This document shows positions 10,917 through 34,966 of a DNA stretch of 64,000 bases, piece by piece (within the stretch, counting starts at the first letter, position 1; each line of letters opens with the position of its first letter). This DNA is from Candidatus Woesearchaeota archaeon (GTDB taxonomy: Archaea > Nanobdellota > Nanobdellia > Woesearchaeales > JAGVYF01), in contig JAGVYF010000001.1 of NCBI GenBank assembly GCA_018303425.1, positions 3,539-67,538 on the forward strand, read 5' to 3'. The translations under genes were made by a program, and so were the position numbers. Below the pieces are notes generated by a model that was given only the letters and a program-made list of their open reading frames with translations, searched no databases and was not told the DNA's origin.

Positions 10917-12032
10917 ATGTACCAAAATCAATTTTCAATGTTTGAAAGAATAGGACATACCATACTTGGAAATCTACCTTTTAGAAACATAATAATTGAG
11001 AATCTGAACAAATTTAGAATTAAACAAATTAAAAAATTAAAAACTCCAATTAATGTTGTATTTTATGTTACAGATGGCTGTAATTTAAGATGCAAGCATT
11101 GTTTTTACTGGAAAAATTTGAAAAATAAAAATGATGAACTTAAAATAGATAAAATTAAAAAAATTGCTAAAAGCTTCAAACACCCATTACATATGTTATC
11201 TTTAACAGGCGGAGAACCTTTTATGAGGCAAGATATTGTTGAAATTTGTAATCTTTTTTACAAATATAATAATACAAAAAGAATTAACATTGCAACAAAC
11301 GGAATACTTACAGGAAAAATAGTTGAAGCTACAAAAATAATATTAAGAAATAATCCCACTAAACGTTTTACGATATTTATATCTTTAGATGGTTTACAAA
11401 GTACTCATGATTCGATTAGAAATTATAACGGCTCATTCGAGAAAGCAATTAAAACTATTAAAGAACTTAAAAAGATTAAAAATAAAAATTTATCTATTTT
11501 TGTTGCAACTACTATTACAGAACAAAATTTTGAAGAATTACCCGAATTAATTCAATTTGTTAAAGCATTAAAAGTTATCCACAAGTTTAATTTATTGAGA
11601 AACAATTCTACTGTGCACAATATTGACCCATCATTACTTCATGATTTTGACCCACAACACGCCAAACTTCCAAAAAATAAAGATCTTGAGAAAGTTTTTC
11701 AAATAATAAAAAATAACGGAAAAAGTATTTCAAACAAAGTTGAAACTTTAAAAATTAAATATTCTATAGATCTACTTAAAAATTTTCACAAAATAAAATG
11801 TTTAGCTACTTTTACAGACATGGTCCTTTTTCCAAAAGGAGATATCTCTGTTTGTGAACCTACTAACTCTTTTGGGAATTTAAAAGATTGGGATTACAAC
11901 GTTTACAAAGCATGGGATTCTAAACATGCTAATAAGAGAAAGTCCAAACTTAAATCATGCTCATGTATTCAATCATGTAACTTGCTTAACTCCATGAAGT
12001 ATGACACAAAAACTCTTAAAAAAATTCTCTAA
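10917..12032 (+). CDS. radical SAM protein with C-terminal Cys-rich (SPASM/twitch-like) extension
   Basis: VTDGCNLRCKHCFY. C-terminal cysteines ...KCLATF...SVCEP...CSCIQSC. Confidence 0.65.
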   Translation: MYQNQFSMFERIGHTILGNLPFRNIIIENLNKFRIKQIKKLKTPINVVFYVTDGCNLRCKHCFYWKNLKNKNDELKIDKIKKIAKSFKHPLHMLSLTGGEPFMRQDIVEICNLFYKYNNTKRINIATNGILTGKIVEATKIILRNNPTKRFTIFISLDGLQSTHDSIRNYNGSFEKAIKTIKELKKIKNKNLSIFVATTITEQNFEELPELIQFVKALKVIHKFNLLRNNSTVHNIDPSLLHDFDPQHAKLPKNKDLEKVFQIIKNNGKSISNKVETLKIKYSIDLLKNFHKIKCLATFTDMVLFPKGDISVCEPTNSFGNLKDWDYNVYKAWDSKHANKRKSKLKSCSCIQSCNLLNSMKYDTKTLKKIL

Positions 12033-18324: not shown

Positions 18325-19752
18325 ATGGCTGAAGAAAGATGTGATGCAGTATTAGTCATCCCCAATCCATATACTGCTGAAGGGATTAATGATACAACAC
18401 ATGAACAACTTTTGGGTATACTTTACATAGGCACATTACTTCAGAAAAATGGATTTAAATGCAAGATTATTGATGCAAAAGTATTAGGTTTATCCAATTC
18501 TGAGATTATTCAACAAATATATGATTTCAAACCTAAACTTATTGGAATAACTTTAGTATCTGTTTCTTATAAAGCAACCAAAGATTTATGTGAAAAAATT
18601 AGAAATTTAGAATTTAGTCCCCGTGTGATTTTAGGGGGACCGCATCCAACTTCATTACCAAAAGAGACATTGGCTGAATTTAACGTTGATGCAGTTGTAA
18701 TCGGCGAAGGTGAACAAACATTTTTAGAAATTGTTAATAACTTGAAAAACAATTTACCTTTATTTCAAAATGTTGCTGGTGTTGCATACAAAGAAAACGG
18801 AGAATTGAAATTTAATTCATCAAGACCCATCAACGCAAACATTGATGAATTACCATTTCCGGACCATAGCATGCTGCCTGATCCTTATTTATATAAACGC
18901 AGAACTAACCAATCTCCTGCAGTTCCAATTTTAACTAGCAGAGGCTGTCCATATTTATGCACATTTTGCAGCCGAGACGTATACAAAAATAAAGTTTTAT
19001 TCAGGACTCCCAAGAATGTAGTTAATGAGATAGATTATTTAGTTGAAACTTTTAAATTTAAACAGATTGATATAATAGATGACAATTTTCTTGTTAATAA
19101 AAATCGTGCAAAAGAAATTTTACAAATGATAATTGAACGTCCTTATAAAATCGCGATAAATCTCCAAAGCGGCGTAAGAGTTGATGCAATTGATGAAGAG
19201 TTACTCATATTTATGAAAAAAGCAGGGGTTTATCGTGTTGCATTAGGGGTAGAATCCGGAGATGAAAGAGTGTTGAAAAATTCTAAAAAAGGCATTAAAT
19301 TAGATGAAGTGAGAAAAGCTGTTAAACTTGTTAAACAGGCAAAGTTAAGAGCAGATTGTTTTTTCATGATAGGTTTACCCGGTGACAATGCCGAAAGCAT
19401 GCAAAGAACAATTGATTTTGCAAAAGAGCTCAAACCAAATACGGCTAATTTTTCAATGACAATACCATTTCCAGGCACTGAACTTTATAGAGAAGCAAAG
19501 GAACATGGACAACTTTTTATTGACACAAGATATGGTCTTGATTCAGGTTATAACGCTGCAAATGTTGCGTATTTGTTAGAAGGAATGGACAAGCAAGAAA
19601 TTTTAAAATATTATAAGAAAGCATACAGAGATTTTTATTTACGGCCTATACAAATATTTAGGATGCTATTGGATGTTAAATCAATAGAAGAATTCAAATG
19701 GTTGATTAAAACTGGCACTTCGGTATTTAAAAGCATATTATTAAAAAACTAA
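18325..19752 (+). CDS. B12-binding radical SAM enzyme
   Basis: N-terminal B12-binding-like region. SRGCPYLCTFCS. 475 aa. Confidence 0.8.
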   Translation: MAEERCDAVLVIPNPYTAEGINDTTHEQLLGILYIGTLLQKNGFKCKIIDAKVLGLSNSEIIQQIYDFKPKLIGITLVSVSYKATKDLCEKIRNLEFSPRVILGGPHPTSLPKETLAEFNVDAVVIGEGEQTFLEIVNNLKNNLPLFQNVAGVAYKENGELKFNSSRPINANIDELPFPDHSMLPDPYLYKRRTNQSPAVPILTSRGCPYLCTFCSRDVYKNKVLFRTPKNVVNEIDYLVETFKFKQIDIIDDNFLVNKNRAKEILQMIIERPYKIAINLQSGVRVDAIDEELLIFMKKAGVYRVALGVESGDERVLKNSKKGIKLDEVRKAVKLVKQAKLRADCFFMIGLPGDNAESMQRTIDFAKELKPNTANFSMTIPFPGTELYREAKEHGQLFIDTRYGLDSGYNAANVAYLLEGMDKQEILKYYKKAYRDFYLRPIQIFRMLLDVKSIEEFKWLIKTGTSVFKSILLKN

Positions 19753-20599: not shown

Positions 20600-21685
20600 T
20601 TAATAATTTTTTCTAAATGAGAATTTAATTAAATTTGTAATTGGAAAAATGAATCTCGGTTCCATAACACATAATTGCATTGCTTTTTTGCATTCCCTAC
20701 ATTTTTTTAATCTTTTCTGTTCACATTTATATGATTTAGACTTTAATACTGATTTAATATTATTATTGCCAATAACCGAATAATTTTGCCAATTTGAACC
20801 ATATAAGCACGGAGAAACCTTCCCGTTCTCAAAAAACTCGCAGAAGAAATACTGTAATTCACAATCTTGCATGAAAATTCCCTCTTTATTTTTACCTAAA
20901 AAATAATCCGGCACGGCTTTGAGATATTTAGGATTATTTAATATTGTTTTTTTCGTTAAGATAAACTTAATAAATTTCTTAACTTCAATAATATTTTGAT
21001 TAATTTCTTTGTTTATTTCACTCTTTGTCTCTTGGCCTTTGAATTCAGGATGCGCGCATATTGCCTGAAATTTCTGTTCGACATCCAATTCATCAGCAAG
21101 CTTAACCAGTTGATATAATTCATTAGTGTTTGTCGGAGTTATAATTGAATTAATAGAAACTCTAACATTGGGGGCATATTTCTTCAAAAGCTTAACCGCT
21201 TCAATTGCCCTGTCATAAGAACCTTTCACACCCGTAGTTTTATCATAGGTTTCTTTTATCCCATTAACACTTATGGATATGGCATCAATTCCAGTTTTTG
21301 ATAATTGCACTGCTTTTTCTTTTGTCATCAAAAAACCATTACTAACCATATGAACAAATGGAATTTTTTTTTTACAATAAGATATTCTTTCCATTATATC
21401 CTGCATTAACAAAGGTTCGCCTCCAGTAAAATTAATATAACATGTACCCATCTTACTTAAATCAGAAATTATTTGTTTAAATTTAGTTAGGGAAATTTCA
21501 TTATTTTTTAGGGGATTCCTCCAAAAATTGCACCATTCGCACCTAAAATTACATCTATGGGTAACATAAAACTGCGCAATCATCGGAAAAGATTTTCCAA
21601 ATAAATAATAATTGATATGCCACTTAAATGCATTATAAAATAATGGAAATATATTAGTCAATTTAAAATTAATTGAAGATGCCAT
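20600..21685 (-). CDS. radical SAM / SPASM-domain protein
   Basis: VTHRCNFRCEWCNFW. C-terminal 7-Cys pattern DC..FC..PC....KC..KKCRECKK..LC. Confidence 0.7.
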   Translation of the reverse strand: MASSINFKLTNIFPLFYNAFKWHINYYLFGKSFPMIAQFYVTHRCNFRCEWCNFWRNPLKNNEISLTKFKQIISDLSKMGTCYINFTGGEPLLMQDIMERISYCKKKIPFVHMVSNGFLMTKEKAVQLSKTGIDAISISVNGIKETYDKTTGVKGSYDRAIEAVKLLKKYAPNVRVSINSIITPTNTNELYQLVKLADELDVEQKFQAICAHPEFKGQETKSEINKEINQNIIEVKKFIKFILTKKTILNNPKYLKAVPDYFLGKNKEGIFMQDCELQYFFCEFFENGKVSPCLYGSNWQNYSVIGNNNIKSVLKSKSYKCEQKRLKKCRECKKAMQLCVMEPRFIFPITNLIKFSFRKNY

Positions 21686-24157: not shown

Positions 24158-25582
24158 ATGTCAGTCGCCAGAAGAATAGCCAAAAATACCTTTTCATTGA
24201 CAGTGGGTGAATTAGTTAGTAAAGCTTTGCTTTTCTTTTTAACTGTGTTAATTGCGAGATATTTAGGCAGTGCTGGATTGGGCAATTATTCGTTCGCAAT
24301 ATCATTCACAGTTTTGTTTTATATGTTAGCTGACATGGGATTAAATAAATTAGCATTAAGAGATTTACCACGAGACAAAACTAAGCTTGGTCAATACTTT
24401 TACAATATCCTAACAATTAAATTTTTCTTATCAATCATCACATTCGTTGCAATAGTGCTTAGTATAAACTTAACCAACCAGCCATATGAAATCAAACTAA
24501 TTGTATATCTCGCAGGTATTTATATGATAATTAGTGAGTCTATAGCAACATTATTCAGGAATGTTTTCGTTTCATTTGAACAGGTAGAATATGAAGCGCT
24601 TGTCACCATAATTGAAAAAATCTTAATTTTTGCACTTGGTTACATATCACTAATCAAGTCCCAAAGTTTATTTTGGCTATTTGTAATGTTTTTAATCGCA
24701 GGAATCATAAAAGCAATAATCGGTTTCATTATTATTATTTACAAGTTTAAACCTAAGTTCTCAATTAATTTTAAAGCCTTTTTACCTTTGATTAAAAATG
24801 CATTTCCATTTAGTTTAACTTATTTATTAGCAACAGTTTACATTAAAGTTGATATTACAATGTTAACTCTCATGAGAAATAGTACTGAAGTTGGCTGGTA
24901 CACTGCAGCTGCTAACTTAATATTTGCTCTTGTTATAATTCCTGCTGTATTTATGAGAGCAGTATTTCCTAATATGACAAGATATTATAAAACTGATAAA
25001 ACGGCATTTATAAGAAGCTGTAGATTGTCATTAAAATATCTAATAATAGTAGGCATGCCTATTTGCATTGGCGGCATAATAACCTCAAAACAGTTAATCA
25101 AATTAATATACGGAGAAGGATTTTCAGAATCAACAATTGCTTTCCAAATTTTACTTGTATTTTTATTTTTATATTTCATTAAATGGGCTTTAAACATTGC
25201 ATTATATGCTGCAGATTTAGAGAAAAAAGTAGTGTGGTCATATTTAGTAGGACTTTTAGTTAATGTTGGACTTAATTTTATTTTAATCCCCATTTGGAGT
25301 TATATAGGGGCAGGAATTACAACAATTATTACTGAGATGATTGTAGTTACTGTAATCTATCACTACTTCATTACAAGAATCAGCAGATTAGTTATCCAAG
25401 ACTATTTAATTAAACCATTAATAAGCGTAGCTATTATGGGATTTGTTATATACTTCCTAGATGAAGCCCCAATTTTGTTAACAATTCTGATAGGAGGAAT
25501 TGTTTATACAATTTCAATTTTATTTTTAAAAACATTAGACAATGAAGATAAAAGATTAATCAGGCAAGTATTAAAAGTTTAA
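24158..25582 (+). CDS. Wzx-type oligosaccharide flippase (MOP superfamily)
   Basis: About 12-14 TM helices. N-terminal IAKNTFSLTVGELVSKALLFFLTVLIARYLG typical of polysaccharide biosynthesis/Wzx proteins. Confidence 0.7.
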   Translation: MSVARRIAKNTFSLTVGELVSKALLFFLTVLIARYLGSAGLGNYSFAISFTVLFYMLADMGLNKLALRDLPRDKTKLGQYFYNILTIKFFLSIITFVAIVLSINLTNQPYEIKLIVYLAGIYMIISESIATLFRNVFVSFEQVEYEALVTIIEKILIFALGYISLIKSQSLFWLFVMFLIAGIIKAIIGFIIIIYKFKPKFSINFKAFLPLIKNAFPFSLTYLLATVYIKVDITMLTLMRNSTEVGWYTAAANLIFALVIIPAVFMRAVFPNMTRYYKTDKTAFIRSCRLSLKYLIIVGMPICIGGIITSKQLIKLIYGEGFSESTIAFQILLVFLFLYFIKWALNIALYAADLEKKVVWSYLVGLLVNVGLNFILIPIWSYIGAGITTIITEMIVVTVIYHYFITRISRLVIQDYLIKPLISVAIMGFVIYFLDEAPILLTILIGGIVYTISILFLKTLDNEDKRLIRQVLKV

Positions 25583-28312
25583 AAAAGATAAAATTTGTGA
25601 AACTGCATCTTCTATCTCGATATTGGTTGTATTTATAATTAGGTTGGCATTTTGCGGTGCCTCATAAGGGTTAGACTCGCTAAAACCAATTAAATTTGTA
25701 ATCTCGCCATTCTTTGCTTTCTCATATAAACCTTTAACATCTCTTTTGGCGCATTCTTCTAAAGGGGTGCTAATAAATAATTCTATAAAATTTTCACCAA
25801 TTAAGTTTCTTGCCATTTCCCTATTCTCTTTGTAAGGGGAGATAATCGGCACAAGAATAAAATCAAATTTTGACTCTTTTTGTTTACATAATTCTGCAAT
25901 TAATTTATTATTCATATAGATGTCTTCTCTTGAAAATCCTAAACTTTTATGCAATGTATTTCGTATAACGTCCCCATCAATAATTTCGGTTTTTTTCCTT
26001 TCAGATTCCAATTTCTTTTTTAACTCTAAAGCAATGGTAGTTTTACCTGAACCGCTCAAACCTGTAAACCAAATAACTTTTGCATTCCTTTTAAATGAAA
26101 CGAAAACTTCTTTATCTTCTTTAATAGCTTCAAGTAACATATTGGATATTTCAGGCCTCATAAACCATGAGGGGGGTTGAACATAATTTATTAACATATT
26201 TCTTGCTTGAGTTCCACTAATCTGAAGCTTATCTTCTTCAGTAAATTGCATTTCTTTTTCATGAATATGTGAATCTAATGATTTTGAATAAAACACTTTG
26301 TCATATATTATTGGCTGAATGCCCAGATCTGGAAATTTATCAAATATTTCATGAGATGCACGCGGGTGATAAAAATCTTTTACGCCCGTATGATCTCTCC
26401 CTACTATAAAATGACTACATCCAAAATTTTTTCTGCAAATTGCAGTGAATATTGCTTCTCTCGGACCGGCATACCTCGAAAATGTAGAAAATGTTCCAAA
26501 TACAACTTTACCTTTAGGATAAATATTTGCCATTAGTTCATAACTTTTGATTATGAATTCTGAATTAAAATCCCCTTCTTTCTTTTGACCAATAATTGGA
26601 TGAATAAATAAACCATCGGCATGTACTTTATACATCGCATCCATTTGCAAAAATTCGTGGCTTCTATGGATAGCATTCCTTGTATGAAAACCTACAATCT
26701 TACTCCAACCTTTTTCCTCAAATATTTTTCTTGCTTGAGAAGGAGTTAGTTCATATTCTTTAAATTTAGAAGGTTTTCTTTTAATTAGGGTAATTTTGCC
26801 TCCTACTAAATATTCATCCATTTTATTTAGCATAATTACTCCTGGATGTTCTATCGAAGTAGTTCCAAACCACTTAACTGCAATTTCATTTTTATTATAA
26901 GTATAAATCTCTTCAACATCAAACAATGCCACAACTTCATCTTCAAACATTAACCCCACTTGTTGACCCTGCAAAAGTTCATTCGCAGTTTGAGAATTAA
27001 TATCAAACAAAATAGGTATGGTCCAAACGACCCCTGTTGAAAGTCTCATATTATTTAAAACAGAATCGAGCTCTTTTTGAGTCATGAATCCTTCTATGGG
27101 ACTAAAAGCACCAATTGCAATTTGTTCTGCGTCCATATATTTATTTTCGTCAATTTTAATTTTGTATAAGCTATCAATATAATTTTGAGATAAAGCTTTC
27201 TTTAACATACGATTTACTAATCTGCCTCCGTGCGCTTTAACCAAGTTTCCTGCAATGGTCTCACTAGAAATATAATTTAATTCCTCCAATCTTTTTAAAA
27301 CCGAATCGCCATTATCAATATCAATATTCGTTACTAATTCAGAATGCTCAACTAACTTAGCCAGCATTTTAACACATTCAAGAGGATATTTTCCTACTGC
27401 CGTTTCACCTGCCAGAACTAAACCTTTGGCACCATCCAAAATAGTGTTAATAACATCATTAGCTTCAGCCCTTGTTGGAGTTCTTTTTTCACTCATTGAT
27501 TCTAGAAGGTTAGTTGCAACAAAAACCGGAATTTTAAAATTTGAAGCAGTTTTAATAATAATTTTTTGAGTTAAGGGAATACGTTCAATAGAGATTTCTT
27601 TTGATAAATCTCCTCTATCGATTAAAATAAAATCCGAAAGTTCAATAATTTCATTTAAATTCGCCAAAGCTTTTTTACTTTCCACTTTAGAGATTATTTT
27701 GACTTTATTTCCTAAAACCTTTTTAACTTCTTTAACATCATCACTTGAATTCATAAAAGAAGCAGCAACATACTTAATTCCGTTTTCGATAGAATATCTT
27801 AATATTTCTTTATCTTGTTCAGAAAGCGAGGGCAATTCTCTTTTAACACCATACCTATCAGTTACTACGACACTTTTATTTCTACCCATTACCCCCCCAT
27901 TAACAACTTTTGCTCTAACTTTATCACCGATTATTTCTATTACTGAAAGAAGCAATGCATCAAAATCAATTGAAATCATATCTCCTGGCTCAAGTTGTTT
28001 TACCATTTCACTGGGCCAAAGATTAATCTCTTTATTGTTGCCTCTGATATTACAACCTGTAATTAATACATAATCACCCTCTTCAAAAGCAGCAACAGAT
28101 TTTTCTAAATCCCCTGTTCTAACCTGGGCACCCGCAGTATCAATAATCAATGGAACACCAACTTGTTCGCACAATGGAATTGCTTTTTTGACATAATCTA
28201 ATCCAACATGAGAAGTATTAATTCTTGCAAAAGTCATTCCGCTAGCTTTCATCTCCTGCAATATTTCAACAGTATCACAACTGGGGCCGAGTGTACAAAC
28301 AATGTCAACCAT
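25571..28312 (-). CDS. trifunctional fusion: pyruvate-kinase-like domain + sulfate adenylyltransferase (ATP sulfurylase) + adenylylsulfate kinase
   Basis: N-terminal DIVCTLGP...ARINTSHV...DTAGAQVRTG...IISKVESK...IDRGDLSKEI...TPTRAEANDV...AGETAVGKYP (PK barrel motifs). Middle GFHTRNAIHRSHE...GRDHTGV (ATP sulfurylase). C-terminal VIWFTGLSGSGKTT (CysC P-loop). Confidence 0.8.
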   Translation of the reverse strand: MVDIVCTLGPSCDTVEILQEMKASGMTFARINTSHVGLDYVKKAIPLCEQVGVPLIIDTAGAQVRTGDLEKSVAAFEEGDYVLITGCNIRGNNKEINLWPSEMVKQLEPGDMISIDFDALLLSVIEIIGDKVRAKVVNGGVMGRNKSVVVTDRYGVKRELPSLSEQDKEILRYSIENGIKYVAASFMNSSDDVKEVKKVLGNKVKIISKVESKKALANLNEIIELSDFILIDRGDLSKEISIERIPLTQKIIIKTASNFKIPVFVATNLLESMSEKRTPTRAEANDVINTILDGAKGLVLAGETAVGKYPLECVKMLAKLVEHSELVTNIDIDNGDSVLKRLEELNYISSETIAGNLVKAHGGRLVNRMLKKALSQNYIDSLYKIKIDENKYMDAEQIAIGAFSPIEGFMTQKELDSVLNNMRLSTGVVWTIPILFDINSQTANELLQGQQVGLMFEDEVVALFDVEEIYTYNKNEIAVKWFGTTSIEHPGVIMLNKMDEYLVGGKITLIKRKPSKFKEYELTPSQARKIFEEKGWSKIVGFHTRNAIHRSHEFLQMDAMYKVHADGLFIHPIIGQKKEGDFNSEFIIKSYELMANIYPKGKVVFGTFSTFSRYAGPREAIFTAICRKNFGCSHFIVGRDHTGVKDFYHPRASHEIFDKFPDLGIQPIIYDKVFYSKSLDSHIHEKEMQFTEEDKLQISGTQARNMLINYVQPPSWFMRPEISNMLLEAIKEDKEVFVSFKRNAKVIWFTGLSGSGKTTIALELKKKLESERKKTEIIDGDVIRNTLHKSLGFSREDIYMNNKLIAELCKQKESKFDFILVPIISPYKENREMARNLIGENFIELFISTPLEECAKRDVKGLYEKAKNGEITNLIGFSESNPYEAPQNANLIINTTNIEIEDAVSQILSFLNF

Positions 28313-29708
28313 TATTAATTATCCTTCCCCGAAAATCTTCAGATTTATTTATCCCAAATATTGATAAAATTGTCGGGGTTACATCGTATATGCTAATTTG
28401 GCCAATATCGCCCAAATTAGGAGTCGCTGGTCCTGCCATTACAAAAGTTCCCAATGGGGCATGTCCTGCATCATCACTTCCTGTTGTAGTCGCCCATGAA
28501 TATAACCCTTCATTACCAACATCATTATTAACACCGCATTTGAGATTATCAAAATATATCATAATATCCGGTGATTCTTCTGCAAACTCACCATGATATA
28601 TTTCCTGGGGCAAGTAAATTTTATTGTCCATTTTATTCCCATTATCATCCTTGATTAGTTTTAATTTGTCTGAAATTTCTTTCTGCAACAAATCATATTC
28701 TTCAAGTGTAACTATTCCTTCTGGCTCACGGCCTTCTAAATTGAAATATAATCTTGCAAAATATGCCCCCACTGAAAATACTCTAGTTTTTGACCAATCG
28801 ATATTAGACATTTTTAGTTTGACTGGTTCAGTTAATTTTTGTTTTAAAACTAAATAGCCTTCTTTTATTAACCAGTCATTCATATTAAACCTGCAATTCA
28901 TTTTATCCATCCCGTGGTCAGAAGAAACAATTATATTTACATCATCCGGCAATATTTCTAAAATCTTACCAAGTTGCGTATCTATATATTTAAAATAATC
29001 AATTAAAACCGTTTTGTATTTTGTATCTCCTTTATAATACCGGTGACTTTTATCTATATAACTCCAAAAATAATGTTCCAACCTATCTGAACCAATTAAA
29101 ACACAGGTAATAAAATTCCATTGCTTATTTTTTATAGCATCAAAAACTAAATCAAAATTTTGCTTAGTCATCTTATAAACTTTTTCAATCAATTCATCTT
29201 TTCCTTCAGTTTTATAAGAAGCCAGACCTACATTAACATCAAACATATAATTCGGAATTTTTTGCTTAATTTCTTCAAGGTAAGATATGGGGTAAATACT
29301 TTTTTCATCTAAATCCGGAGCTAAAAAACCAGATACCAGATGACAATTAGGAAATTGTTTTTCAATGGGATATATTAAAGGCACATTTAATACAATGCTT
29401 TTTAAGTTATTTTTTGATAAAATTTCCCATATCATTTCTGTTCTTACATCTTTTGAGCTCACAAGTCTTGAAGCAGAATATGCAAAACCATCCCTAATTG
29501 TATAACTATAAACACCATGTTGACTTGGGTCCTTCCCTGAAAAAAGACTAGTCCAAGCAACGCAAGTTGAGGGGGGCACTGTAGTCTCAATTTTTGCGTA
29601 TAAACCCCTTTGCATTAATTTTTTAAGATTAGGCAAATCTTTTAGCCACTCACCAAAAACATATTGCGGCGGGGCTCCATCAATCCCTAAAAGAAATAAT
29701 TTAGTCAT
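28305..29708 (-). CDS. alkaline-phosphatase-superfamily protein (type I phosphodiesterase/nucleotide pyrophosphatase family)
   Basis: LLGIDGAPPQY...TTVPPSTCVAWTSLFSGKDPSQHGV (Thr-nucleophile NPP-like motif). DHG region. No TM helix. Confidence 0.6.
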   Translation of the reverse strand: MTKLFLLGIDGAPPQYVFGEWLKDLPNLKKLMQRGLYAKIETTVPPSTCVAWTSLFSGKDPSQHGVYSYTIRDGFAYSASRLVSSKDVRTEMIWEILSKNNLKSIVLNVPLIYPIEKQFPNCHLVSGFLAPDLDEKSIYPISYLEEIKQKIPNYMFDVNVGLASYKTEGKDELIEKVYKMTKQNFDLVFDAIKNKQWNFITCVLIGSDRLEHYFWSYIDKSHRYYKGDTKYKTVLIDYFKYIDTQLGKILEILPDDVNIIVSSDHGMDKMNCRFNMNDWLIKEGYLVLKQKLTEPVKLKMSNIDWSKTRVFSVGAYFARLYFNLEGREPEGIVTLEEYDLLQKEISDKLKLIKDDNGNKMDNKIYLPQEIYHGEFAEESPDIMIYFDNLKCGVNNDVGNEGLYSWATTTGSDDAGHAPLGTFVMAGPATPNLGDIGQISIYDVTPTILSIFGINKSEDFRGRIINNG

Positions 29709-29711
29709 TTT

Positions 29712-29963
29712 TTAATCCAAATAGCCCAAACTTCTTAATCTCTCTTTAACTTTTTTTTCGTCTTCTTCTGAAAATGCTTCCTTCATTTCAGTTTTTTTTT
29801 CAACGGATTCGGCATTAGAAAGAACTTGTCTTAAAACATAAGTAACATAACTTGAAACTGAATTAAAGCCTGTTCCTTCCATCCTTTTTTTAATTTTATC
29901 TGCTAATACTTTTGGTACTGAGATAGTAGTTATATTTGATTCACTCATAATAATCCCCCCCAT
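29712..29963 (-). CDS. ribbon-helix-helix (CopG-like) DNA-binding protein
   Basis: TISVPKVLADKIKKRM...SVSSYVTYVLRQVL fits a beta-strand/helix/helix RHH pattern. 83 aa. Tandem repeats in its upstream region. Confidence 0.5.
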   Translation of the reverse strand: MGGIIMSESNITTISVPKVLADKIKKRMEGTGFNSVSSYVTYVLRQVLSNAESVEKKTEMKEAFSEEDEKKVKERLRSLGYLD

Positions 29964-29972
29964 ACTAATTAC

Positions 29973-30006
29973 ATTTAATTGTATTTAATTGATTTATATG
30001 ATTTAT
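29973..30006. promoter_or_regulatory. tandem 10-bp-phased repeats ATTTAATTG x2 and GATTTAT x2 in divergent RHH/AlkP intergenic region
   Basis: ATTTAATTG at 29973-81 and 29983-91. GATTTAT at 29991-97 and 30000-06. Located 10-45 nt upstream of the RHH start on the minus strand. Confidence 0.4.
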
Positions 30007-30067
30007 TATTCTGCAAAATCTATTATCTTGTCCTATAATCTTTAAAAAAGCTTTAGAGAATAGGGGT

Positions 30068-31615
30068 ATGATGAAAAAAAGACTAGCAGTATTTGGGATG
30101 GATGGATCTCGTTTGGATGTAGTAAAAAAATGGGTAGACATTGGGTATCTTCCAACAATTAAAAAAATTATTGAAAAGGGAGTGTCTGGAGAAATAAAAA
30201 GTTTACTGCCCGGACCGCATTCATTTTCGGCATGGACCTCCTTTGCAACAGGCACCAATCCGGGCAAACATGGTTTGTGTTACCCTGTTGTGCCTGATTT
30301 TAAAAACCAAAAGTTGCAATTCATTAACTCCACACATATAAAAAACAAAAAAATTTGGAACTATTTGTCAGAGGATGGTAAAGTTGTTGGAATAATGGAT
30401 TTACCTATTCTCTATCCCGTAGAACCTTTAAACGGTATAATGGTTTCATCATGGGGTACGCCTGCACTTGAAAGTGAATATACTTATCCCGGTGATATTA
30501 AACATATAATGGACAATTTTGAAGCCGGAACAATTGCAAACTGCTATGAAAGATCAAATCAGGCTTTGAATAATTTATATCGGGCCACCAATCAAAAATT
30601 TAACTCAATTAAATGGTTTTTTAATAATTATGATTGGGATTTTTTTGCTAATGATTTTATTGAACCGGAACTATTGCATCATCTTTATTCACCTTATCTA
30701 GATATAACACATGAACAGTATAATCCCAATTATGAAACTATTATTCGGGATTACTATATAAAAATGGATAAATTCTTCGCAGAAATTCTTCAAATGTATC
30801 CCGAATTAAATATAATCATAATGTCAGATCACGGACATTGCGCAAATAAGGAATATGTTTATGTAAATAATATCTTAGCAAAATATGATTTTTTTTATAA
30901 AAGTAAAATCAATGTTTCTCAAAAAAATAAAGTTTATCATGGCATAATTAAACAGTTAACAAATTTATATCTCCAAATTCCCATTTCAGTCAAAAAAGAA
31001 TTTAATAAATTAATTCCTAAATTTTTCGCGGATAAAGTAAAACACAAAAAAACATTAGACATTAATTGGGATAAAAGTATTGCATTTTGCTTACAATTAG
31101 GAATGGTATATATAAATCGGTCATATGGTGATATTCAAAATGGAAAAATAAGTGTAGAAGATACGACGCATAAAGTTTTTGAAGCATTAAAAAATGATGA
31201 AATTATGAAAACAAAAGTAAGAGGGCTCTATTTAAAAAAAGACCTGTTTAATGGGCAAAATCAAGATACGTTGCCGGATATAGTTATTGATTTTTATGAT
31301 GATTACAAGATTAATACAGGAACGCCGGAAAATATTTTTAGTGAAAAGATTAAAAGTAATCAACCAACAAGCCACACAATGGATGCTATGTTTTTAGCTT
31401 ATGGTCCAGAATTTAAAGAAGGCTTAAAAATTAAAGGCCGGAGTATAATGGACATAATGCCCACAATTATGCATTTTTTTAATTTACACATTCCTAAAGA
31501 AGTAGACGGGGTAATTATGAAAGAGATTTTTAAAAAATTTGAAGACAATAAAATAAAAGTCAAAGGGAGAGAAGAGTTAATACTGAATCAAGCAATAAAA
31601 GGAGTTAGGATATGA
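30068..31615 (+). CDS. alkaline-phosphatase-superfamily protein (type I phosphodiesterase/nucleotide pyrophosphatase family)
   Basis: LAVFGMDGSRLD...LLPGPHSFSAWTSFATGTNPGKHGL. MSDHGH metal motif. Paralogous to 28305..29708. Confidence 0.6.
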   Translation: MMKKRLAVFGMDGSRLDVVKKWVDIGYLPTIKKIIEKGVSGEIKSLLPGPHSFSAWTSFATGTNPGKHGLCYPVVPDFKNQKLQFINSTHIKNKKIWNYLSEDGKVVGIMDLPILYPVEPLNGIMVSSWGTPALESEYTYPGDIKHIMDNFEAGTIANCYERSNQALNNLYRATNQKFNSIKWFFNNYDWDFFANDFIEPELLHHLYSPYLDITHEQYNPNYETIIRDYYIKMDKFFAEILQMYPELNIIIMSDHGHCANKEYVYVNNILAKYDFFYKSKINVSQKNKVYHGIIKQLTNLYLQIPISVKKEFNKLIPKFFADKVKHKKTLDINWDKSIAFCLQLGMVYINRSYGDIQNGKISVEDTTHKVFEALKNDEIMKTKVRGLYLKKDLFNGQNQDTLPDIVIDFYDDYKINTGTPENIFSEKIKSNQPTSHTMDAMFLAYGPEFKEGLKIKGRSIMDIMPTIMHFFNLHIPKEVDGVIMKEIFKKFEDNKIKVKGREELILNQAIKGVRI

Positions 31616-32337
31616 CTTATTTAAAAAAAGAAATTAAATATCTTAAACAAATTTTAACACGAGAAGAAATAAAATACTATAATTTCCACAAAAAGAGATA
31701 TTTAGACATATTACAATCCATTCATATTAATAAAAATGTTAAAATATTGGATTTGGGGTGCAGTAATGGGCATTTATTACTTATATTAAAAAAATTAGGA
31801 GCTGATGTGTGCGGGGTTGATTATACGGATAAGTGGAAAGAAAGATTCAAAAAATATGGAATTATGTTTAAAAAATGCAATATAGAGTCAGATCCCCTCC
31901 CGTATTTAGACGATACTTTTGATTATGTAATGATGAATGAGGTTATTGAACATCTGGTAAAAGAGATAAATTTACCAATTAAAGAATGTAAAAGGATATT
32001 AAAAAAAAATGGAAAATTGATTATATCTACGCCCAATGCATGTGAATTAGGCAAAAGGTTATTATTCTTATTGGGCAAGAATATTTATTGGGATATAAAT
32101 ACATTTTATGAGAGGGGAATTTATGAAAGGCATAATAGAGAATTCAGCATGGATGAATTAAAATTTATACTTAAAATAAATGGATTTTCAAAATTTAAAA
32201 GCAAATATCTTTCTTCATGGGAAGGGTTGAGACAAATTGAGAAAAATAATCCTTTAGCAACAATTATTTCAATGATTCAAAAAATATTTCCTAAATTTAG
32301 ATCAAATCTTCTTATAATTGCGAATAAGTCAAATTAA
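31612..32337 (+). CDS. class I SAM-dependent methyltransferase
   Basis: Motif I ILDLGCSNGH. 4-nt overlap with the upstream AlkP-family gene. Confidence 0.7.
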   Translation: MTYLKKEIKYLKQILTREEIKYYNFHKKRYLDILQSIHINKNVKILDLGCSNGHLLLILKKLGADVCGVDYTDKWKERFKKYGIMFKKCNIESDPLPYLDDTFDYVMMNEVIEHLVKEINLPIKECKRILKKNGKLIISTPNACELGKRLLFLLGKNIYWDINTFYERGIYERHNREFSMDELKFILKINGFSKFKSKYLSSWEGLRQIEKNNPLATIISMIQKIFPKFRSNLLIIANKSN

Positions 32338-33816
32338 TTTTTCATATTCCCTTAATATTAAAACTAAAACCTTTCTTAAAAAAACCTTTGGTTGAGTTAA
32401 ATAAGTTTTCCAATTGCTCTTGAAATTCCGAATCATATATTTATATGGCATTGGCTTTTTGATTAAATTAAAATTATAATCTATGTAGTAATAATTTTTA
32501 CAATGTATTTTTTTAGGTTTAAACTGGTTTGTTAATGGAACTATTAAAATATCTGAAAAATCAGGTTTATCTGATAATTTAATCTCCGCCGCAGGGAATA
32601 GTAATTTAAATCCATTTAATACTACTGAATTAAACAAATTATTAGAACTTCTCAAAATAGATAAATGTTTAAATTTATTTTTTAAAAAAATAAATTTCAA
32701 TTTTTCAGCCATAAATTCTGCATGAAAATTAAGTAAATCCTCTTCCTGATTAAAAAATTCATTTTTAAATTTAAAAATTAAGTTTTTATATATAATATTT
32801 GAAATTTGGTTAATTTTTTCATATGGATCTTTAACCATGTCGTAAAATTCAAAATTATTGTGTCCATTAGATTGTATGACCAATTTGTATTTTCCATTGT
32901 GCAGCGCCGTTTTTTTATTTTTTTGAAAATAATTCCTCGTATCAACACGGAAAAATCTTTTTGGGGACTTTACATTTTTCAAAGGCAATGGTTTTGAAAA
33001 ATAAGGACACCCAAATGATGCATTAATCTCTAGATGATTTAATAAAGTGGGCGCAATGTCTAAAGTTGATACTGGAGTTGTAACTTTTAATCCTTTTTCG
33101 CACCCCGGATAAATTAGTATTAACGGCACTTTAATATTATCATTTGTTATAAATAAATCATGACCTTCTAAAGTTTTTTGTAGCCTTGTCCGGTTATTTT
33201 GCTTATCTTTTGAAGGCCAACCATGATCCGCCCATACAATTACAATTGAATTGTCCATATAACCCCTATTTTTTAAAAAATCAAACATCTTTTTTGCATC
33301 CGCTAAAGAATCATCACCTTTAATTGGAGTAAAAGAATATTGAAGATAAAGTAAAAAAGGATTACTTAATTTATTTTTAGCTAAAAGAGATTTAGTTAAT
33401 CTATTGATTTCTTTGCTATTCCACATGTACTTATAATCTTTAACATTTTTAGGAAAATATTTTTTTTTAATTGGAAACATCATCTTTTTCAAATTTTTCC
33501 TGACCGGCAGATAGAACAAACTTGAATAAATCTTATATTTGCTAGACTTTAATAACTGAAAAAAGGGTTTAAATTTGGAATAATCAATTTGTAAATCTTC
33601 AAAAGATCTGGCAAAATACGAGGAAGGATAACCCACCATTACACTACTGATTGATAATACCGTGCTGGGAAAAGCGGTATAAGCATTAGTATATTCTATA
33701 CCTTCCTTAGCCCATTCATCCAAATAATCCGGCCTATCTTTATAGTCCCCATATTCTTTTGTAGGTCTAATTCCATCCAGATGGAACCATATAATATTTT
33801 TATATTTCTTTTTCAT
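32329..33816 (-). CDS. sulfatase-like hydrolase/transferase (AlkP superfamily, PF00884-like)
   Basis: NIIWFHLDGIR N-terminus. WADHGWP metal-binding motif. No canonical C/S-x-P-x-R formylglycine motif seen (TAFPSTV instead), so possibly a Thr-nucleophile transferase. Confidence 0.5.
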   Translation of the reverse strand: MKKKYKNIIWFHLDGIRPTKEYGDYKDRPDYLDEWAKEGIEYTNAYTAFPSTVLSISSVMVGYPSSYFARSFEDLQIDYSKFKPFFQLLKSSKYKIYSSLFYLPVRKNLKKMMFPIKKKYFPKNVKDYKYMWNSKEINRLTKSLLAKNKLSNPFLLYLQYSFTPIKGDDSLADAKKMFDFLKNRGYMDNSIVIVWADHGWPSKDKQNNRTRLQKTLEGHDLFITNDNIKVPLILIYPGCEKGLKVTTPVSTLDIAPTLLNHLEINASFGCPYFSKPLPLKNVKSPKRFFRVDTRNYFQKNKKTALHNGKYKLVIQSNGHNNFEFYDMVKDPYEKINQISNIIYKNLIFKFKNEFFNQEEDLLNFHAEFMAEKLKFIFLKNKFKHLSILRSSNNLFNSVVLNGFKLLFPAAEIKLSDKPDFSDILIVPLTNQFKPKKIHCKNYYYIDYNFNLIKKPMPYKYMIRNFKSNWKTYLTQPKVFLRKVLVLILREYEKLI

Positions 33817-34948
33817 TATAAATCCTTAATATGCTTTCGACATAAGCTCCGATATTCAATTCTCTTCTAACTTTTAATGGTTTACGCCTCTTAAAAATTT
33901 CTTTAGTCAATTCATTTTCGTCAAAAAAATTGCACACATTTTCTTTACCGGCAGTTTCAATAATACCCCCTTTATTATTTGCTATTAAGGGTTTCTTCAT
34001 TGCCATTGCTTCTAATTGAACTCTACCCTGAGCTTCCAACCAAATAGACGGAAATGCAACTATATCGCATTCTGCATATTTTTTCATAACTTCTTCCTGA
34101 GATAGTTTACCGAAAAAGATAACTGAATCCCGAATATTTAATTTTTCACTCAATTTTTTTAAGTAGTTTTCATAACTACCTGTACCCACAATCCAAAGCT
34201 TTGCATTTTTTTTCTTTTGTAAAATTTTAGGCATTATCTTAATTAATAACTGAAATCCTTTATAGGGTTCTAATCTGCCAGGTCCTGCAAGAATAATAAA
34301 GCCTTTATTTTTGAGTTTAGGTTTTGGCTTCCAGTCAGGCATTGGATTATGTACAACTTCAATGTTAGTTCTTATTCTTGAATTATAAAGAACTTCTTTA
34401 ACAAAATTTGTTAATGCAATTATTTTATCCGTAGAATTTAAAGCATTCCTTAAAACTTTTGCTCTCCCTTTAATAAACGGATAAATTAAATATGCTAAAC
34501 TTGGATAACCAAATTGGTAATTTGCTTCTCTTTTCAAACAATTTAAATAACGTGTATTCAAACAGTTATGATAAAGCTTTCCCTGATTTTGGCATATAGG
34601 CAAATTACAAACAAATCTTAAATCTCTAACTGTGGCAATAACTTTCAATTTTAATTTTTTTGCAGCAAGAACCGTTGCGGGAAGTATCATTAAATCCTGG
34701 ACATGCACAATATCAAACCCTTTTCCGCACAGTTGATTGTAAATATATCTGCTGATATAAACATCTAATAGATTAGTGTTTAATAAAAACGCTCTTAAAT
34801 ATGTAGGTATGCTCTGTAAAAGGGAGTTTAGAGTTATTACTTTAACTTGATTTTTAGTCTTGTTTAAACCTTCAACAAGCAAATTAGTACTTACTTCTGC
34901 ACCGCCGATATTCTCTCCGAAGTATGTTGAAACAATAGCAATTTTCAT
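33800..34948 (-). CDS. glycosyltransferase family 4
   Basis: MKIAIVSTYFGENIGGAE. C-terminal GT-B EAQGRVQLEAMAMKKPLIANNKGGIIE. Start at 34948 fits leaderless spacing to the TTTATAAATA box. Confidence 0.7.
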   Translation of the reverse strand: MKIAIVSTYFGENIGGAEVSTNLLVEGLNKTKNQVKVITLNSLLQSIPTYLRAFLLNTNLLDVYISRYIYNQLCGKGFDIVHVQDLMILPATVLAAKKLKLKVIATVRDLRFVCNLPICQNQGKLYHNCLNTRYLNCLKREANYQFGYPSLAYLIYPFIKGRAKVLRNALNSTDKIIALTNFVKEVLYNSRIRTNIEVVHNPMPDWKPKPKLKNKGFIILAGPGRLEPYKGFQLLIKIMPKILQKKKNAKLWIVGTGSYENYLKKLSEKLNIRDSVIFFGKLSQEEVMKKYAECDIVAFPSIWLEAQGRVQLEAMAMKKPLIANNKGGIIETAGKENVCNFFDENELTKEIFKRRKPLKVRRELNIGAYVESILRIYNEKEI

Positions 34949-34966
34949 TATGCAGAGAATCTCCAT

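What the first reader, a model, noticed from the sequence alone, without database searches (positions are those of the whole stretch)
28305..33816. Trio of alkaline-phosphatase-superfamily enzymes plus RHH regulator next to the PAPS synthase, with no recognisable sulfotransferase
Seen in sequence: two paralogous PF01663-like phosphodiesterase/NPP-type proteins (28305..29708 minus strand, 30068..31615 plus strand). They are arranged divergently around an 83-aa RHH protein gene and followed by a methyltransferase and a PF00884 sulfatase-like protein (32329..33816). All lack signal peptides and TM helices. The sulfatase-like protein lacks the C/S-x-P-x-R formylglycine motif (TAFPSTV instead). Inference: Thr-nucleophile group-transferases rather than sulfatases. 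I cannot find a P-loop PAPS-sulfotransferase motif in any ORF of the window by eye. So either sulfotransfer is carried out by a non-canonical enzyme, possibly one of these, or these act on phospho-ester decorations or PAP by-product.
Basis: partly seen in the sequence, partly recalled or inferred. Interest (0 to 1): 0.65.

Follow-up and report, generated by a model that had tools for sequence, protein, structure and literature searches.

The report
Phosphatase-family enzymes replacing sulfotransferase in archaeal cluster
In this tiny archaeon's sugar-coat gene cluster, the machinery that activates sulfate sits next to three alkaline-phosphatase-family enzymes where related microbes have an ordinary sulfotransferase, so these enzymes may be an unrecognised way of attaching sulfate to sugars.

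Summary
A (28305-29708) and B (30068-31615) are PF01663 paralogs. C (32329-33816) has a sulfatase fold but Thr52 where sulfatases have formylglycine. An 83-aa RHH-family gene and a methyltransferase lie between them. None has a TM helix or signal peptide, and no sulfotransferase is detectable in the 64 kb.

New context. The "PAPS synthase" also carries a pyruvate-kinase (PK) barrel. The order A, PK, ATP sulfurylase recurs across DPANN archaea. A is fused to PK in one relative and to PK plus ATP sulfurylase (1153 aa) in another.

Among 82 metagenomic loci centred on this PK-sulfurylase, 36 carry a canonical sulfotransferase and no AP-superfamily protein. Two carry an AP-superfamily protein and no sulfotransferase. 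None carries both. Of about ten AP-type loci, one has a sulfotransferase. AP-type operons carry their own pAp phosphatase.

Best reading (confidence about 0.4): at least one AP enzyme does the sulfotransfer, with conserved A on the donor side and variable B and C on the acceptor side. Rivals are A as a pyrophosphatase, or a sulfotransferase encoded elsewhere. No biochemistry exists.

The RHH protein's C-terminal ...ERLRSLGYLD tail also ends long-form family enzymes.

The parts
25571..28312 (-). Four-domain sulfate-activation enzyme: pyruvate-kinase barrel (aa 3-314), PUA_2, ATP sulfurylase and APS kinase. Its start overlaps the end of A by 8 nt, which suggests translational coupling.
   Evidence: Pfam: PK 3.3e-72, PUA_2 2.4e-44, ATP-sulfurylase 2.1e-72, APS_kinase 5e-49. 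The PK catalytic motifs are intact against solved pyruvate kinases. The fusion is widespread in DPANN and CPR.
28305..29708 (-). A: cytosolic NPP-like AP-superfamily enzyme and conserved core of the module. Predicted site: D10, T48 (nucleophile), D208, H212, D264, H265, H416, plus near-invariant R209.
   Evidence: PF01663 7.7e-42. Invariant residues in 29 homologs and across 110 family members. AF2 model pLDDT 95. Best folds are NPP1/3/5/6 and Xac NPP, TM about 0.6, 12-16% identity. Orthologs at 41-54% identity sit directly upstream of PK-ATPS in DPANN. Fused to PK (P0032) and to PK plus ATPS (L175).
29712..29963 (-). Small RHH-family protein, directly upstream of A and in the same direction. 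It has an N-terminal ribbon-helix-helix, an acidic linker and a C-terminal tail ...VKERLRSLGYLD.
   Evidence: The family (28 members in 25 loci) lies adjacent to A homologs. RHH_1 is hit in 8 of 18 members. The tail motif also ends 58 of about 120 PF01663-family proteins in related loci. Only the tail, not the RHH part, aligns to them.
29964..30067 (.). Divergent intergenic spacer between the RHH-A-synthase operon and the B-methyltransferase operon. It contains the tandem repeat ATTTAATTG twice at 10-bp spacing (29973-29991), a candidate RHH operator.
   Evidence: This is weak evidence because the sequence is AT-rich and the repeat has only two copies.
30068..31615 (+). B: second PF01663 paralog, lineage-variable. 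Ser52 takes the nucleophile position and Glu201 replaces the Asp208-equivalent ligand. It lacks the GY tail and ends ...AIKGVRI.
   Evidence: PF01663 1.9e-24. Alignment to A. Site string DHSWELHDHH. A second AP paralog is present in all Pfam-labelled PK-ATPS/A loci. The closest B ortholog is 60% identical (L175); elsewhere only 24-30%.
31612..32337 (+). SAM-dependent methyltransferase, overlapping the end of B by 4 nt. It is syntenic in L175.
   Evidence: Methyltransf_11 6e-17 and related families. 58% identity in L175.
32329..33816 (-). C: cytosolic protein with the fold of an S1 carbohydrate sulfatase, but Thr52 in place of formylglycine and no Pro or Arg of CxPxR. It has a roughly 150-aa C-terminal extension and is co-oriented with the upstream GT1 gene (33800-34966).
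   Evidence: PF00884 and SGSH_C. Alignments. S51-T52 and D197-H198-G199 are invariant in its 7 homologs. AF2 pLDDT 80. Best folds are S1 carbohydrate sulfatases and YejM, TM about 0.5-0.56. PF00884-type Thr-nucleophile proteins recur next to PK-ATPS in L088, L091, L134, L140 and L175.

Best explanation
The three AP-superfamily proteins and the RHH-tail protein belong to a conserved cassette of DPANN archaea, built around a pyruvate-kinase / ATP-sulfurylase / APS-kinase enzyme inside a surface-glycan cluster.

In this cassette the AP enzymes occupy the slot that a canonical PAPS sulfotransferase fills in sister lineages. I propose that at least one of them is the sulfotransferase.

**Proposed mechanism (inferred, not shown)**
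1. The fused synthase makes APS or PAPS, and the PK domain regenerates ATP from PEP.
2. A is translationally coupled here and covalently fused in relatives. It binds the adenine-nucleotide donor in the way NPP enzymes do.
3. Its bimetal-activated Thr48 takes the sulfuryl group, with AMP or PAP as the leaving group.
4. The sulfuryl group passes to a conserved acceptor hydroxyl, for example a nucleotide-sugar or a lipid-linked precursor.
5. The divergent paralogs B (Ser52) and C (sulfatase fold, Thr52) act on lineage-specific acceptor positions.

The RHH protein probably represses the divergent promoters. Through a C-terminal amphipathic LGY tail that long-form family enzymes carry in cis, it probably also contacts the enzyme complex.

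**Shown**: gene content, fusions, synteny, intact catalytic sites, folds, absence of a sulfotransferase in the window, and the distribution pattern.

**Inferred**: the donor, the sulfuryl chemistry, the acceptor, and the roles of B, C and the tail.
For: 1. Coupling. The order A then PK then ATPS (then APSK) is conserved at 41-54% A identity in independent DPANN loci. A's stop overlaps the synthase start in the window. A::PK fusions exist (P0032 and P0035). In L175 a single 1153-aa ORF encodes A::PK::PUA_2::ATPS. There the cassette is more diverged (34-45% identity) than its flanks (53-77%), so it moves as a unit.

2. Displacement. Of 82 loci centred on this PK subfamily, 36 have a sulfotransferase and no AP protein, 2 have an AP protein and no sulfotransferase, and none has both. 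Ten of ten sampled sulfotransferase calls were confirmed by Pfam. The CPR loci L093 and L094 carry a sulfotransferase (L094 also CysQ) and no AP protein. Among about ten AP-type loci only one has a sulfotransferase. A rough Fisher test gives p about 5e-4, but the samples are not independent.

3. AP-type operons carry their own pAp phosphatase: PHP of the Cv1693 family or a DHH-type enzyme. This implies that PAPS is consumed locally, and it leaves the AP proteins as the only unassigned enzymes.

4. The window encodes no other small-group donor pathway. No nucleotidyltransferase or CDP-alcohol genes were found.

5. The bimetal and Thr/Ser sites are intact in about 110 family members. A has an NPP fold. 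C has a carbohydrate-sulfatase fold.

6. From established knowledge: AP-superfamily members catalyse both phosphoryl and sulfuryl transfer through covalent intermediates.
Against: - No AP-superfamily sulfotransferase is known. A sulfo-Thr or sulfo-Ser ester is chemically hard to turn over, which is why sulfatases use formylglycine.
- The AP-versus-sulfotransferase pattern follows phylogeny. AP-linked PK domains cluster basally, with only L134 nested among the sulfotransferase clades. It may therefore reflect few evolutionary events.
- Sulfotransferases co-occur with A in the P0008 locus, and sulfotransferase-like ORFs co-occur with A in L015 and L042.
- Most A homologs in genome contigs have no sulfurylase within 10 kb.
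- Only 8-10 kb flanks were examined, so a sulfotransferase could lie elsewhere in these genomes.
- High conservation of A would also fit a housekeeping hydrolase of the module.
- Ten long PK-centred loci have neither a sulfotransferase nor an AP protein.
Confidence: 0.4

Rival explanations
1. A is an accessory hydrolase of sulfate activation, most plausibly an inorganic pyrophosphatase that pulls the unfavourable ATP-sulfurylase reaction. The operon A, PK, ATPS, APSK would then be the natural equivalent of the classical four-enzyme PAPS-generating mix. Sulfotransfer would be done by B or C, or by an enzyme encoded elsewhere.
For: - ATP sulfurylase is naturally fused to inorganic pyrophosphatase in stramenopiles and haptophytes, for exactly this reason (PMC2275785).
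- A is far more conserved than B, as expected for a fixed small substrate.
- A also heads operons with other putative nucleotidyltransferases, which would release PPi (module 2 with the NTase-like c10).
- From own knowledge: AP-superfamily phosphatases can hydrolyse PPi.
Against: - The many sulfotransferase-type PK-ATPS loci have no dedicated pyrophosphatase and no A, so the module does not need one.
- A's nearest folds are nucleotide-binding NPPs, which make PPi rather than cleave it.
- A has many invariant aromatic residues, suggesting a larger ligand.
- This reading still leaves the sulfotransferase unaccounted for in 9 of about 10 AP-type loci.
Confidence: 0.25
2. A, B and C are phospho-group transferases or phosphodiesterases that decorate or trim the glycan with phosphodiester substituents, as EptA, LtaS and PIG-N do. 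They would have no direct role in sulfation. The sulfotransferase would be encoded outside the window, or be too divergent to recognise.
For: - Thr/Ser-nucleophile AP enzymes that modify glycans are all phospho-group transferases (own knowledge).
- Weak NCBIfam similarity of related PF00884 proteins to EptA, LtaS and YejM.
- A homologs also sit beside kinase-nucleotidyltransferase genes (c30) and nonulosonic-acid genes, without a sulfurylase nearby.
- Pfam-negative sulfotransferase-like proteins do exist (L042:6601).
Against: - The window has no phospho-alcohol donor pathway and the proteins have no membrane domain to reach lipid donors.
- This reading does not explain the A::PK::ATPS fusion or the mutual exclusion with sulfotransferases.
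- A sensitive sulfotransferase HMM finds nothing in the window.
Confidence: 0.2
3. A is the 3'-phosphoadenosine-5'-phosphate (pAp) phosphatase of the pathway, a CysQ analogue that removes the inhibitory by-product.
For: - A is an NPP-like nucleotide-binding phosphoesterase placed next to the PAPS synthase.
- The window itself has no CysQ, PHP or DHH gene.
Against: - Sister operons contain A together with a dedicated pAp phosphatase: PHP of the Cv1693 family, PDB 2yb1 E 1e-44, NF041577 6e-48; or a DHH-type enzyme.
- A is fused or adjacent to ATP sulfurylase in loci where no APS kinase was found, so no pAp is expected there.
Confidence: 0.07
4. C, and perhaps A and B, are hydrolytic sulfatases or editing enzymes that remove sulfate from precursors, or that scavenge sulfate for the sulfurylase.
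For: C's best structural matches are carbohydrate sulfatases, with Pfam PF00884 and SGSH_C.
Against: - The defining C/S-x-P-x-R formylglycine motif is absent in C and in all its homologs.
- The window holds six radical SAM genes. None was tested for a SPASM domain or for similarity to anaerobic sulfatase-maturating enzymes, so no maturase was identified and none was excluded.
- The proteins are cytosolic and sit in a biosynthetic cluster.
Confidence: 0.05

Closest known systems
Nucleotide pyrophosphatase/phosphodiesterases (NPP1/3/5/6, Xanthomonas NPP; PF01663)
   Same: A and B share the fold, the bimetal ligand set (D, D/H, D/H, H) and the Thr/Ser nucleophile position. NPPs bind adenine nucleotides with a phospho-anhydride at the metal site.
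   Different: Identity is only 12-16%. A and B are cytosolic, with no signal peptide. They carry an extra cap region of roughly 120 aa. The aromatic residue after the nucleophile is not conserved. Their context is biosynthetic, and A is fused in relatives to PK and ATP sulfurylase. No NCBIfam family matches.
Canonical bacterial and archaeal sulfation cassettes: ATP sulfurylase and APS kinase, a PF00685/PF13469/PF03567 sulfotransferase, and a CysQ pAp phosphatase. Examples are the CPR loci L093 and L094, and rhizobial NodPQ/NodH.
   Same: The same PK::ATPS(::APSK) enzyme sits in the same kind of glycan cluster with flippase, glycosyltransferases and methyltransferases, and a pAp phosphatase is often adjacent.
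   Different: Here the sulfotransferase is missing and two PF01663 proteins, one PF00884 protein and an RHH protein are present instead. In AP-type relatives, CysQ is replaced by a PHP or DHH enzyme.
Thr-nucleophile group transferases of the AP superfamily that decorate glycans: phosphoethanolamine transferases EptA/MCR-1, LtaS, and GPI EtNP transferases PIG-N/O (PF01663)
   Same: They have a Thr/Ser nucleophile, a covalent-intermediate transferase logic, and a role in adding charged groups to surface glycans.
   Different: Those enzymes have an N-terminal multi-TM domain, act on the outer face of the membrane and use lipid donors. A, B and C are soluble. The only donor pathway encoded nearby is PAPS.
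Formylglycine-dependent S1 carbohydrate sulfatases
   Same: C has the overall fold, including the C-terminal subdomain, and the conserved D...DHG metal ligands.
   Different: There is no CxPxR motif: Thr52 sits at the formylglycine position. C is cytosolic, biosynthetic in context and has a roughly 150-aa C-terminal extension.
ATP sulfurylase fused to inorganic pyrophosphatase, or to APS reductase, in algae (Patron et al. 2008, PMC2275785)
   Same: These are precedents for fusing to the sulfurylase either a by-product remover or the enzyme that consumes APS. The A::PK::ATPS fusion in L175 is analogous.
   Different: The fused partner here is an NPP-like AP-superfamily enzyme of unknown activity together with a pyruvate kinase. 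The system is archaeal and glycan-related, not assimilatory.
RHH type II antitoxin-like regulators (CopG, FitA, ParD)
   Same: The small protein has an N-terminal RHH domain and a flexible C-terminal peptide that could bind a partner enzyme. It is encoded directly upstream of that enzyme.
   Different: The partner is a metabolic enzyme rather than a toxin. The tail is a motif that long-form family enzymes carry in cis. Binding has not been tested.

Membership tests
Alkaline-phosphatase superfamily, PF01663 branch (A and B) | Significant profile match and the alpha/beta core fold | tested here: met
   PF01663 E 7.7e-42 for A and 1.9e-24 for B. The A model has pLDDT 95 and its best folds are NPPs.
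Alkaline-phosphatase superfamily, PF01663 branch (A and B) | Bimetal ligand set plus a Thr/Ser nucleophile | tested here: met
   A has D10, T48, D208, H212, D264, H265 and H416, invariant in 29 homologs. Across about 110 family members the pattern is D, S/T, D, H, D, H, H. B has S52 and Glu in place of the third ligand.
Characterised NPP nucleotide pyrophosphatases (EC 3.6.1.9 / 3.1.4.1) | Close sequence relationship, secretion, and a nucleotide-sandwiching aromatic pair | tested here: not met
   Identity is 12-16% and the PDB profile E-value is only 3e-6. There is no signal peptide. Residue 49, after the nucleophile, is not aromatic. Hydrolytic activity cannot be tested here.
Housekeeping PF01663 or metalloenzyme relatives (phosphonoacetate hydrolase PhnA, cofactor-independent phosphoglycerate mutase) | Orthology to the curated family model | tested here: not met
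   NCBIfam gives no PhnA or iPGM hit for A or B. PhnA structures match only residues 9-106, at E 5.5e-4.
Type I (formylglycine) sulfatases, for C | C/S-x-P-x-R motif at the nucleophile position | tested here: not met
   TAFPST52VLSIS aligns with Thr at the formylglycine position and lacks the Pro and Arg. The same holds in all 7 homologs and in related PF00884 proteins.
Type I (formylglycine) sulfatases, for C | Sulfatase fold with the C-terminal subdomain | tested here: met
   PF00884 and SGSH_C. Foldseek top hits are S1 carbohydrate sulfatases, TM 0.5-0.56.
Canonical PAPS-dependent sulfotransferases (PF00685, PF13469, PF03567, PF09037 and others) | Profile match or a 5'-PSB P-loop-like motif in any window ORF | tested here: not met
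   Pfam scans of all ORFs of 100 aa or more. A sulfotransferase HMM and 42 single queries against six-frame segments gave a best E of 0.0066, on a glycosyltransferase.
Phosphoethanolamine / phosphoglycerol transferases (EptA, LtaS) | N-terminal multi-TM domain plus a periplasmic Thr-nucleophile sulfatase-like domain | tested here: not met
   A Thr nucleophile is present, but A, B and C have no hydrophobic segment. Use of a lipid donor cannot be tested here.
Ribbon-helix-helix (CopG/MetJ/Arc) regulators, for the 83-aa protein | RHH_1 profile match, a beta-alpha-alpha N-terminal domain, and DNA binding | tested here: inconclusive
   The window protein has no significant Pfam hit. Eight of 18 orthologous family members match PF01402, best E 3.6e-5. 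The best PDB profile hit has E 0.32. DNA binding cannot be tested here.
Bifunctional PAPS synthase (ATP sulfurylase and APS kinase) | Both catalytic domains present | tested here: met
   PF01747 2e-72 and PF01583 5e-49; NF004040 6e-130. An additional PK barrel with intact catalytic motifs is present.

The most novel reading that the evidence does not exclude
A family of cytosolic NPP-like and sulfatase-like alkaline-phosphatase-superfamily enzymes constitutes a previously unrecognised class of sulfotransferases. They would use APS or PAPS through a covalent sulfo-Thr/Ser enzyme intermediate. They would be physically channelled from a pyruvate-kinase / ATP-sulfurylase fusion, and organised by a shared C-terminal LGY tail that the RHH protein supplies in trans. 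In part of the DPANN archaea, this class would have displaced canonical sulfotransferases.
Probability: 0.3. Interest if true: 0.88.

Novelty: new variant of a known kind. Interest (0 to 1): 0.68.

Why it matters
If an AP-superfamily enzyme transfers sulfate from APS or PAPS, that would be a third mechanistic class of sulfotransferase. The two known classes are the PAPS-dependent P-loop-like enzymes and the aryl-sulfate sulfotransferases. It would also invert the usual role of a superfamily known for removing sulfate and phosphate.

Such enzymes would explain how many ultra-small archaea, whose surface coats mediate host attachment, sulfate their glycans without a recognisable sulfotransferase. 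They would also give glycan engineers soluble enzymes that come with a built-in ATP-regenerating PAPS supply.

Even if A proves to be a pyrophosphatase, two things appear undescribed in the literature searched. One is the natural four-enzyme PAPS generator (pyrophosphatase, PK, ATPS, APSK). The other is the widespread PK-sulfurylase fusion of DPANN and CPR organisms.

The hypothesis is directly testable with three recombinant proteins.

Tried and rejected
**Searches and checks that gave no result**
- A canonical or divergent sulfotransferase in the window: none found.
- Orthology of A or B to PhnA, iPGM or PafA: rejected.
- The RHH N-terminal domain inside long-form enzymes: only the 25-aa tail aligns. 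The small protein is therefore not simply a detached C-terminal domain.
- Pfam scan of 113 unlabelled ORFs near archaeal A homologs: no sulfotransferase family among the 25 most frequent families. The tool lists only 25 families, so this test is weak.
- Identity of the 'module 2' proteins c10 and c16, by Pfam, NCBIfam and PDB profiles: no hits.
- Literature searches for an AP-superfamily sulfotransferase, COG3379, or PK-sulfurylase fusions: nothing relevant.

**Ideas considered and not adopted**
- A as pAp phosphatase: disfavoured, because PHP or DHH pAp phosphatases co-occur with A.
- The conserved tail Tyr as a sulfate carrier or acceptor: not supported, because DPANN B-type tails lack the Gly-Tyr. 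This was not tested further.

**Tools unavailable**
- Model coordinates are not exposed, so pocket and contact analysis could not be done.

Full report
**1. What is in the window**

The window has about 30% GC and is archaeal. It carries archaeal PheRS alpha and beta, archease, Hjc-like and KaiC genes. A source names the synthase as coming from a Candidatus Woesearchaeota archaeon.

Positions 1-42,900 form one large surface-glycan cluster. It contains GT2, GT4 and GT1 glycosyltransferases, PMT_2-like GT-C enzymes, a flippase, two UDP-sugar dehydrogenases, DegT aminotransferases, acetyltransferases, a deacetylase, methyltransferases and six radical-SAM genes.

The finding's ORFs are exactly as described:
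- A, 28305-29708(-), PF01663.
- A small ORF, 29712-29963(-).
- B, 30068-31615(+), PF01663.
- A methyltransferase, 31612-32337(+).
- C, 32329-33816(-), PF00884 and SGSH_C.

A and B are paralogs: 24% identity, E 6e-37. None of the three has a TM or signal-like segment.

C has Thr52 at the formylglycine position and lacks the Pro and Arg of the motif.

The small protein's family matches Pfam RHH_1 in 8 of 18 members. It is co-oriented with A. Only B is divergent.

The adjacent 913-aa 'PAPS synthase' (25571-28312) has four domains: PK barrel, PUA_2, ATP sulfurylase and APS kinase. The PK catalytic motifs are intact. Its start overlaps A's stop by 8 nt.

**2. No sulfotransferase**

Pfam scans of every ORF of 100 aa or more found no sulfotransferase family.

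I then built an HMM from 40 sulfotransferases that sit next to homologous PK-sulfurylases elsewhere. Ten of ten sampled were confirmed as PF00685/PF13469. I searched all six-frame segments of the window of 50 aa or more. Nothing was significant.

**3. A is part of a conserved sulfate-activation cassette**

A's homologs are almost all from DPANN archaea, with some Patescibacteria. They are unnamed or called 'AlkP superfamily phosphohydrolase/phosphomutase'. NCBIfam has no model for A or B.

The following loci carry Pfam-labelled genes and show the same core:

| Locus | Gene order |
|---|---|
| P0008 locus | A, PK::ATPS, APSK |
| L088 | A, PK::ATPS, APSK |
| L089 | A, PK, ATPS, APSK |
| L090 | A, PK::ATPS, P-loop kinase, PHP, then B on the opposite strand |
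| L091 | A, PK, ATPS, APSK, AP, then a sulfatase-like gene on the opposite strand |
| L005 | ATPS, rhh, A::PK, then AP on the opposite strand |
| L140 | sulfatase-like, rhh, A, PK::ATPS, PHP |

In L175 the flanking genes are 53-77% identical to the window. There, a single uninterrupted 1153-aa ORF encodes A::PK::PUA_2::ATPS. No APS kinase lies in that 21-kb locus.

A orthologs are 41-54% identical across these lineages. B has no close ortholog outside L175: 24-30% elsewhere. So A is the conserved core and B and C are variable.

**4. Displacement pattern**

The PK::ATPS(::APSK) fusion is widespread in DPANN and CPR.

In two CPR genomes it sits next to a canonical sulfotransferase, in one of them also next to CysQ, and there is no AP-family gene.

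A metagenome scan with a PK-subfamily-specific alignment returned 80 loci. Together with the two CPR loci, this gave 82 PK-centred loci:

| Content of locus | All 82 loci | Loci of 12 kb or more |
|---|---|---|
| Sulfotransferase and AP protein | 0 | 0 |
| AP protein only | 2 | 2 |
| Sulfotransferase only | 36 | 24 |
| Neither | 44 | 10 |

Combined with the A-centred loci, about ten AP-type loci contain a canonical sulfotransferase once, in the P0008 locus. A rough Fisher test gives p about 5e-4.

There are caveats. AP-linked PK domains cluster together basally in a neighbour-joining tree, so few evolutionary events may underlie the pattern. Sulfotransferase-like ORFs accompany A in L015 and L042.

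**5. What A is not**

AP-type operons contain their own pAp phosphatase:
- A PHP protein of the Cv1693/TrpH family: PDB 2yb1 E 1e-44, NF041577 E 6e-48.
- A DHH-like protein in a Jordarchaeia locus.

A role for A as a CysQ analogue is therefore unlikely. The presence of a pAp phosphatase also implies that PAPS is consumed by something encoded locally.

**6. Structure**

A models at pLDDT 95. Its best matches are NPP1/3/5/6 and Xanthomonas NPP, with TM about 0.6 and 12-16% identity. The seven NPP-type catalytic positions are conserved across about 110 family members.

C models at pLDDT 80. It best matches S1 carbohydrate sulfatases and YejM.

**7. The RHH tail**

The small protein's family always ends in an acidic stretch followed by [VI]xERL[RK]xLGY[LIV][DG].

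The same tail ends 58 of about 120 PF01663-family proteins in the fetched loci:
- nearly all long-form bacterial homologs (Chloroflexota, Acidobacteriota, Planctomycetota);
- some archaeal homologs;
- the A::PK fusion;
- two PF00884 proteins.

Only the tail aligns, not the RHH part. Short DPANN A proteins lack the tail and have the RHH-tail gene immediately upstream.

I read the tail as an amphipathic docking or targeting helix supplied in trans. Its function is unknown.

**8. Interpretation**

Mapping the two cassette types onto each other gives:
- PK-ATPS-APSK matches PK-ATPS-APSK.
- CysQ matches PHP or DHH.
- The sulfotransferase matches the AP-family proteins.

The AP proteins are the only unassigned enzymes in the AP-type cassette, and sulfotransfer is the only unassigned function. 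The window also encodes no other small-group donor pathway.

The best-supported reading is therefore that at least one AP-superfamily protein performs the sulfotransfer (confidence about 0.4). A would act on the nucleotide donor.

The main rival is that A is a pyrophosphatase. The precedent is the ATPS-pyrophosphatase fusions described in PMC2275785.

A second rival is that these are phospho-group transferases and the sulfotransferase lies elsewhere in the genome.

The chemistry of a sulfo-Thr intermediate has no precedent. That is both the main reason for caution and the reason for interest.

No relevant description was found in the literature searched.

Noticed in passing
window 25571-28312 (-): The PAPS synthase carries an N-terminal pyruvate-kinase barrel that lacks the regulatory C-domain and keeps intact catalytic motifs. 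PK::ATPS(::APSK) fusions fill all 120 listed protein clusters, from DPANN archaea and CPR/Patescibacteria. They were not mentioned in the literature searched.
   Followed up: yes
window 29712-29963 (-); related loci L005-L092: The RHH protein ends in ...EEDEKKVKERLRSLGYLD. This tail motif also ends most long-form PF01663-family enzymes in bacteria and some PF00884 proteins. It looks like a mobile C-terminal docking or targeting peptide.
   Followed up: partly
window 29973-29991: A tandem direct repeat, ATTTAATTG twice at 10-bp spacing, lies in the 104-bp divergent spacer between the RHH gene and B. It is a possible RHH operator, but the region is AT-rich and chance is not excluded.
   Followed up: no
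window 53-967, 5171-6580, 9397-10830, 10917-12032, 18325-19752, 20600-21685: One glycan cluster holds six radical-SAM genes, three of them with B12-binding domains. This is an unusual density and suggests C-methylation or other radical chemistry on sugars.
   Followed up: no
L013, L015, L022, L025, L027, L029, L032, L034, L042 (archaea); L176 (Patescibacteria): A second operon type has the order rhh, A, c10, c10, c16, PHP, then B on the opposite strand, with no ATP sulfurylase. The c10 protein (about 360 aa, NTase-like G..SDID motif) and c16 (about 205 aa, HIT-like HLHIKIFP) have no Pfam, NCBIfam or PDB match. The c10 protein is fused to A in L022 and L025. In L176 an HD_4 phosphohydrolase replaces PHP. 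This may be an alternative route to a nucleotide-activated donor.
   Followed up: partly
L088, L094, L096, L103, L105, L106, L139, L150, L156, L176: A small PQ-loop/MtN3 (semiSWEET-like, about 90-105 aa) membrane-protein gene recurs within or next to the PK::ATPS and APSK genes. Its role is unknown.
   Followed up: no
L175 14190-17651: In a syntenic relative, the A::PK::ATPS gene is much more diverged from the window (34-45% identity) than its flanking genes (53-77%). It also lacks APS kinase. This suggests cassette replacement in situ and possibly use of APS rather than PAPS.
   Followed up: partly
L096, L114, L116, L121, L143, L147, L155, L160: One subfamily of the canonical sulfotransferases next to PK::ATPS ends in ...[FL]GY(x0-2). 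This resembles the LGY tail of the AP enzymes and the RHH protein. It is either coincidence or a shared docking motif.
   Followed up: no
window 32329-33816 (-): C has only seven detectable homologs among 5.8 billion proteins. It also carries a roughly 150-aa C-terminal helical and alpha/beta extension with no family assignment.
   Followed up: partly
window 13233-14648 (-): A 471-aa ORF with no Pfam hit gives only a weak NCBIfam match (E 6e-17, below cutoff) to the LA_3751/LA_3752 putative glycosyltransferase family. It may be a polymerase-like membrane protein of the cluster.
   Followed up: no
L049-L051, L055, L057, L060, L062: In Chloroflexota (Ardenticatenaceae and relatives), a long-form tail-bearing homolog of A and B lies 2-4 kb upstream of a fused ATP-sulfurylase/APS-kinase gene. 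The link between this AP family and sulfate activation therefore extends to free-living bacteria.
   Followed up: partly
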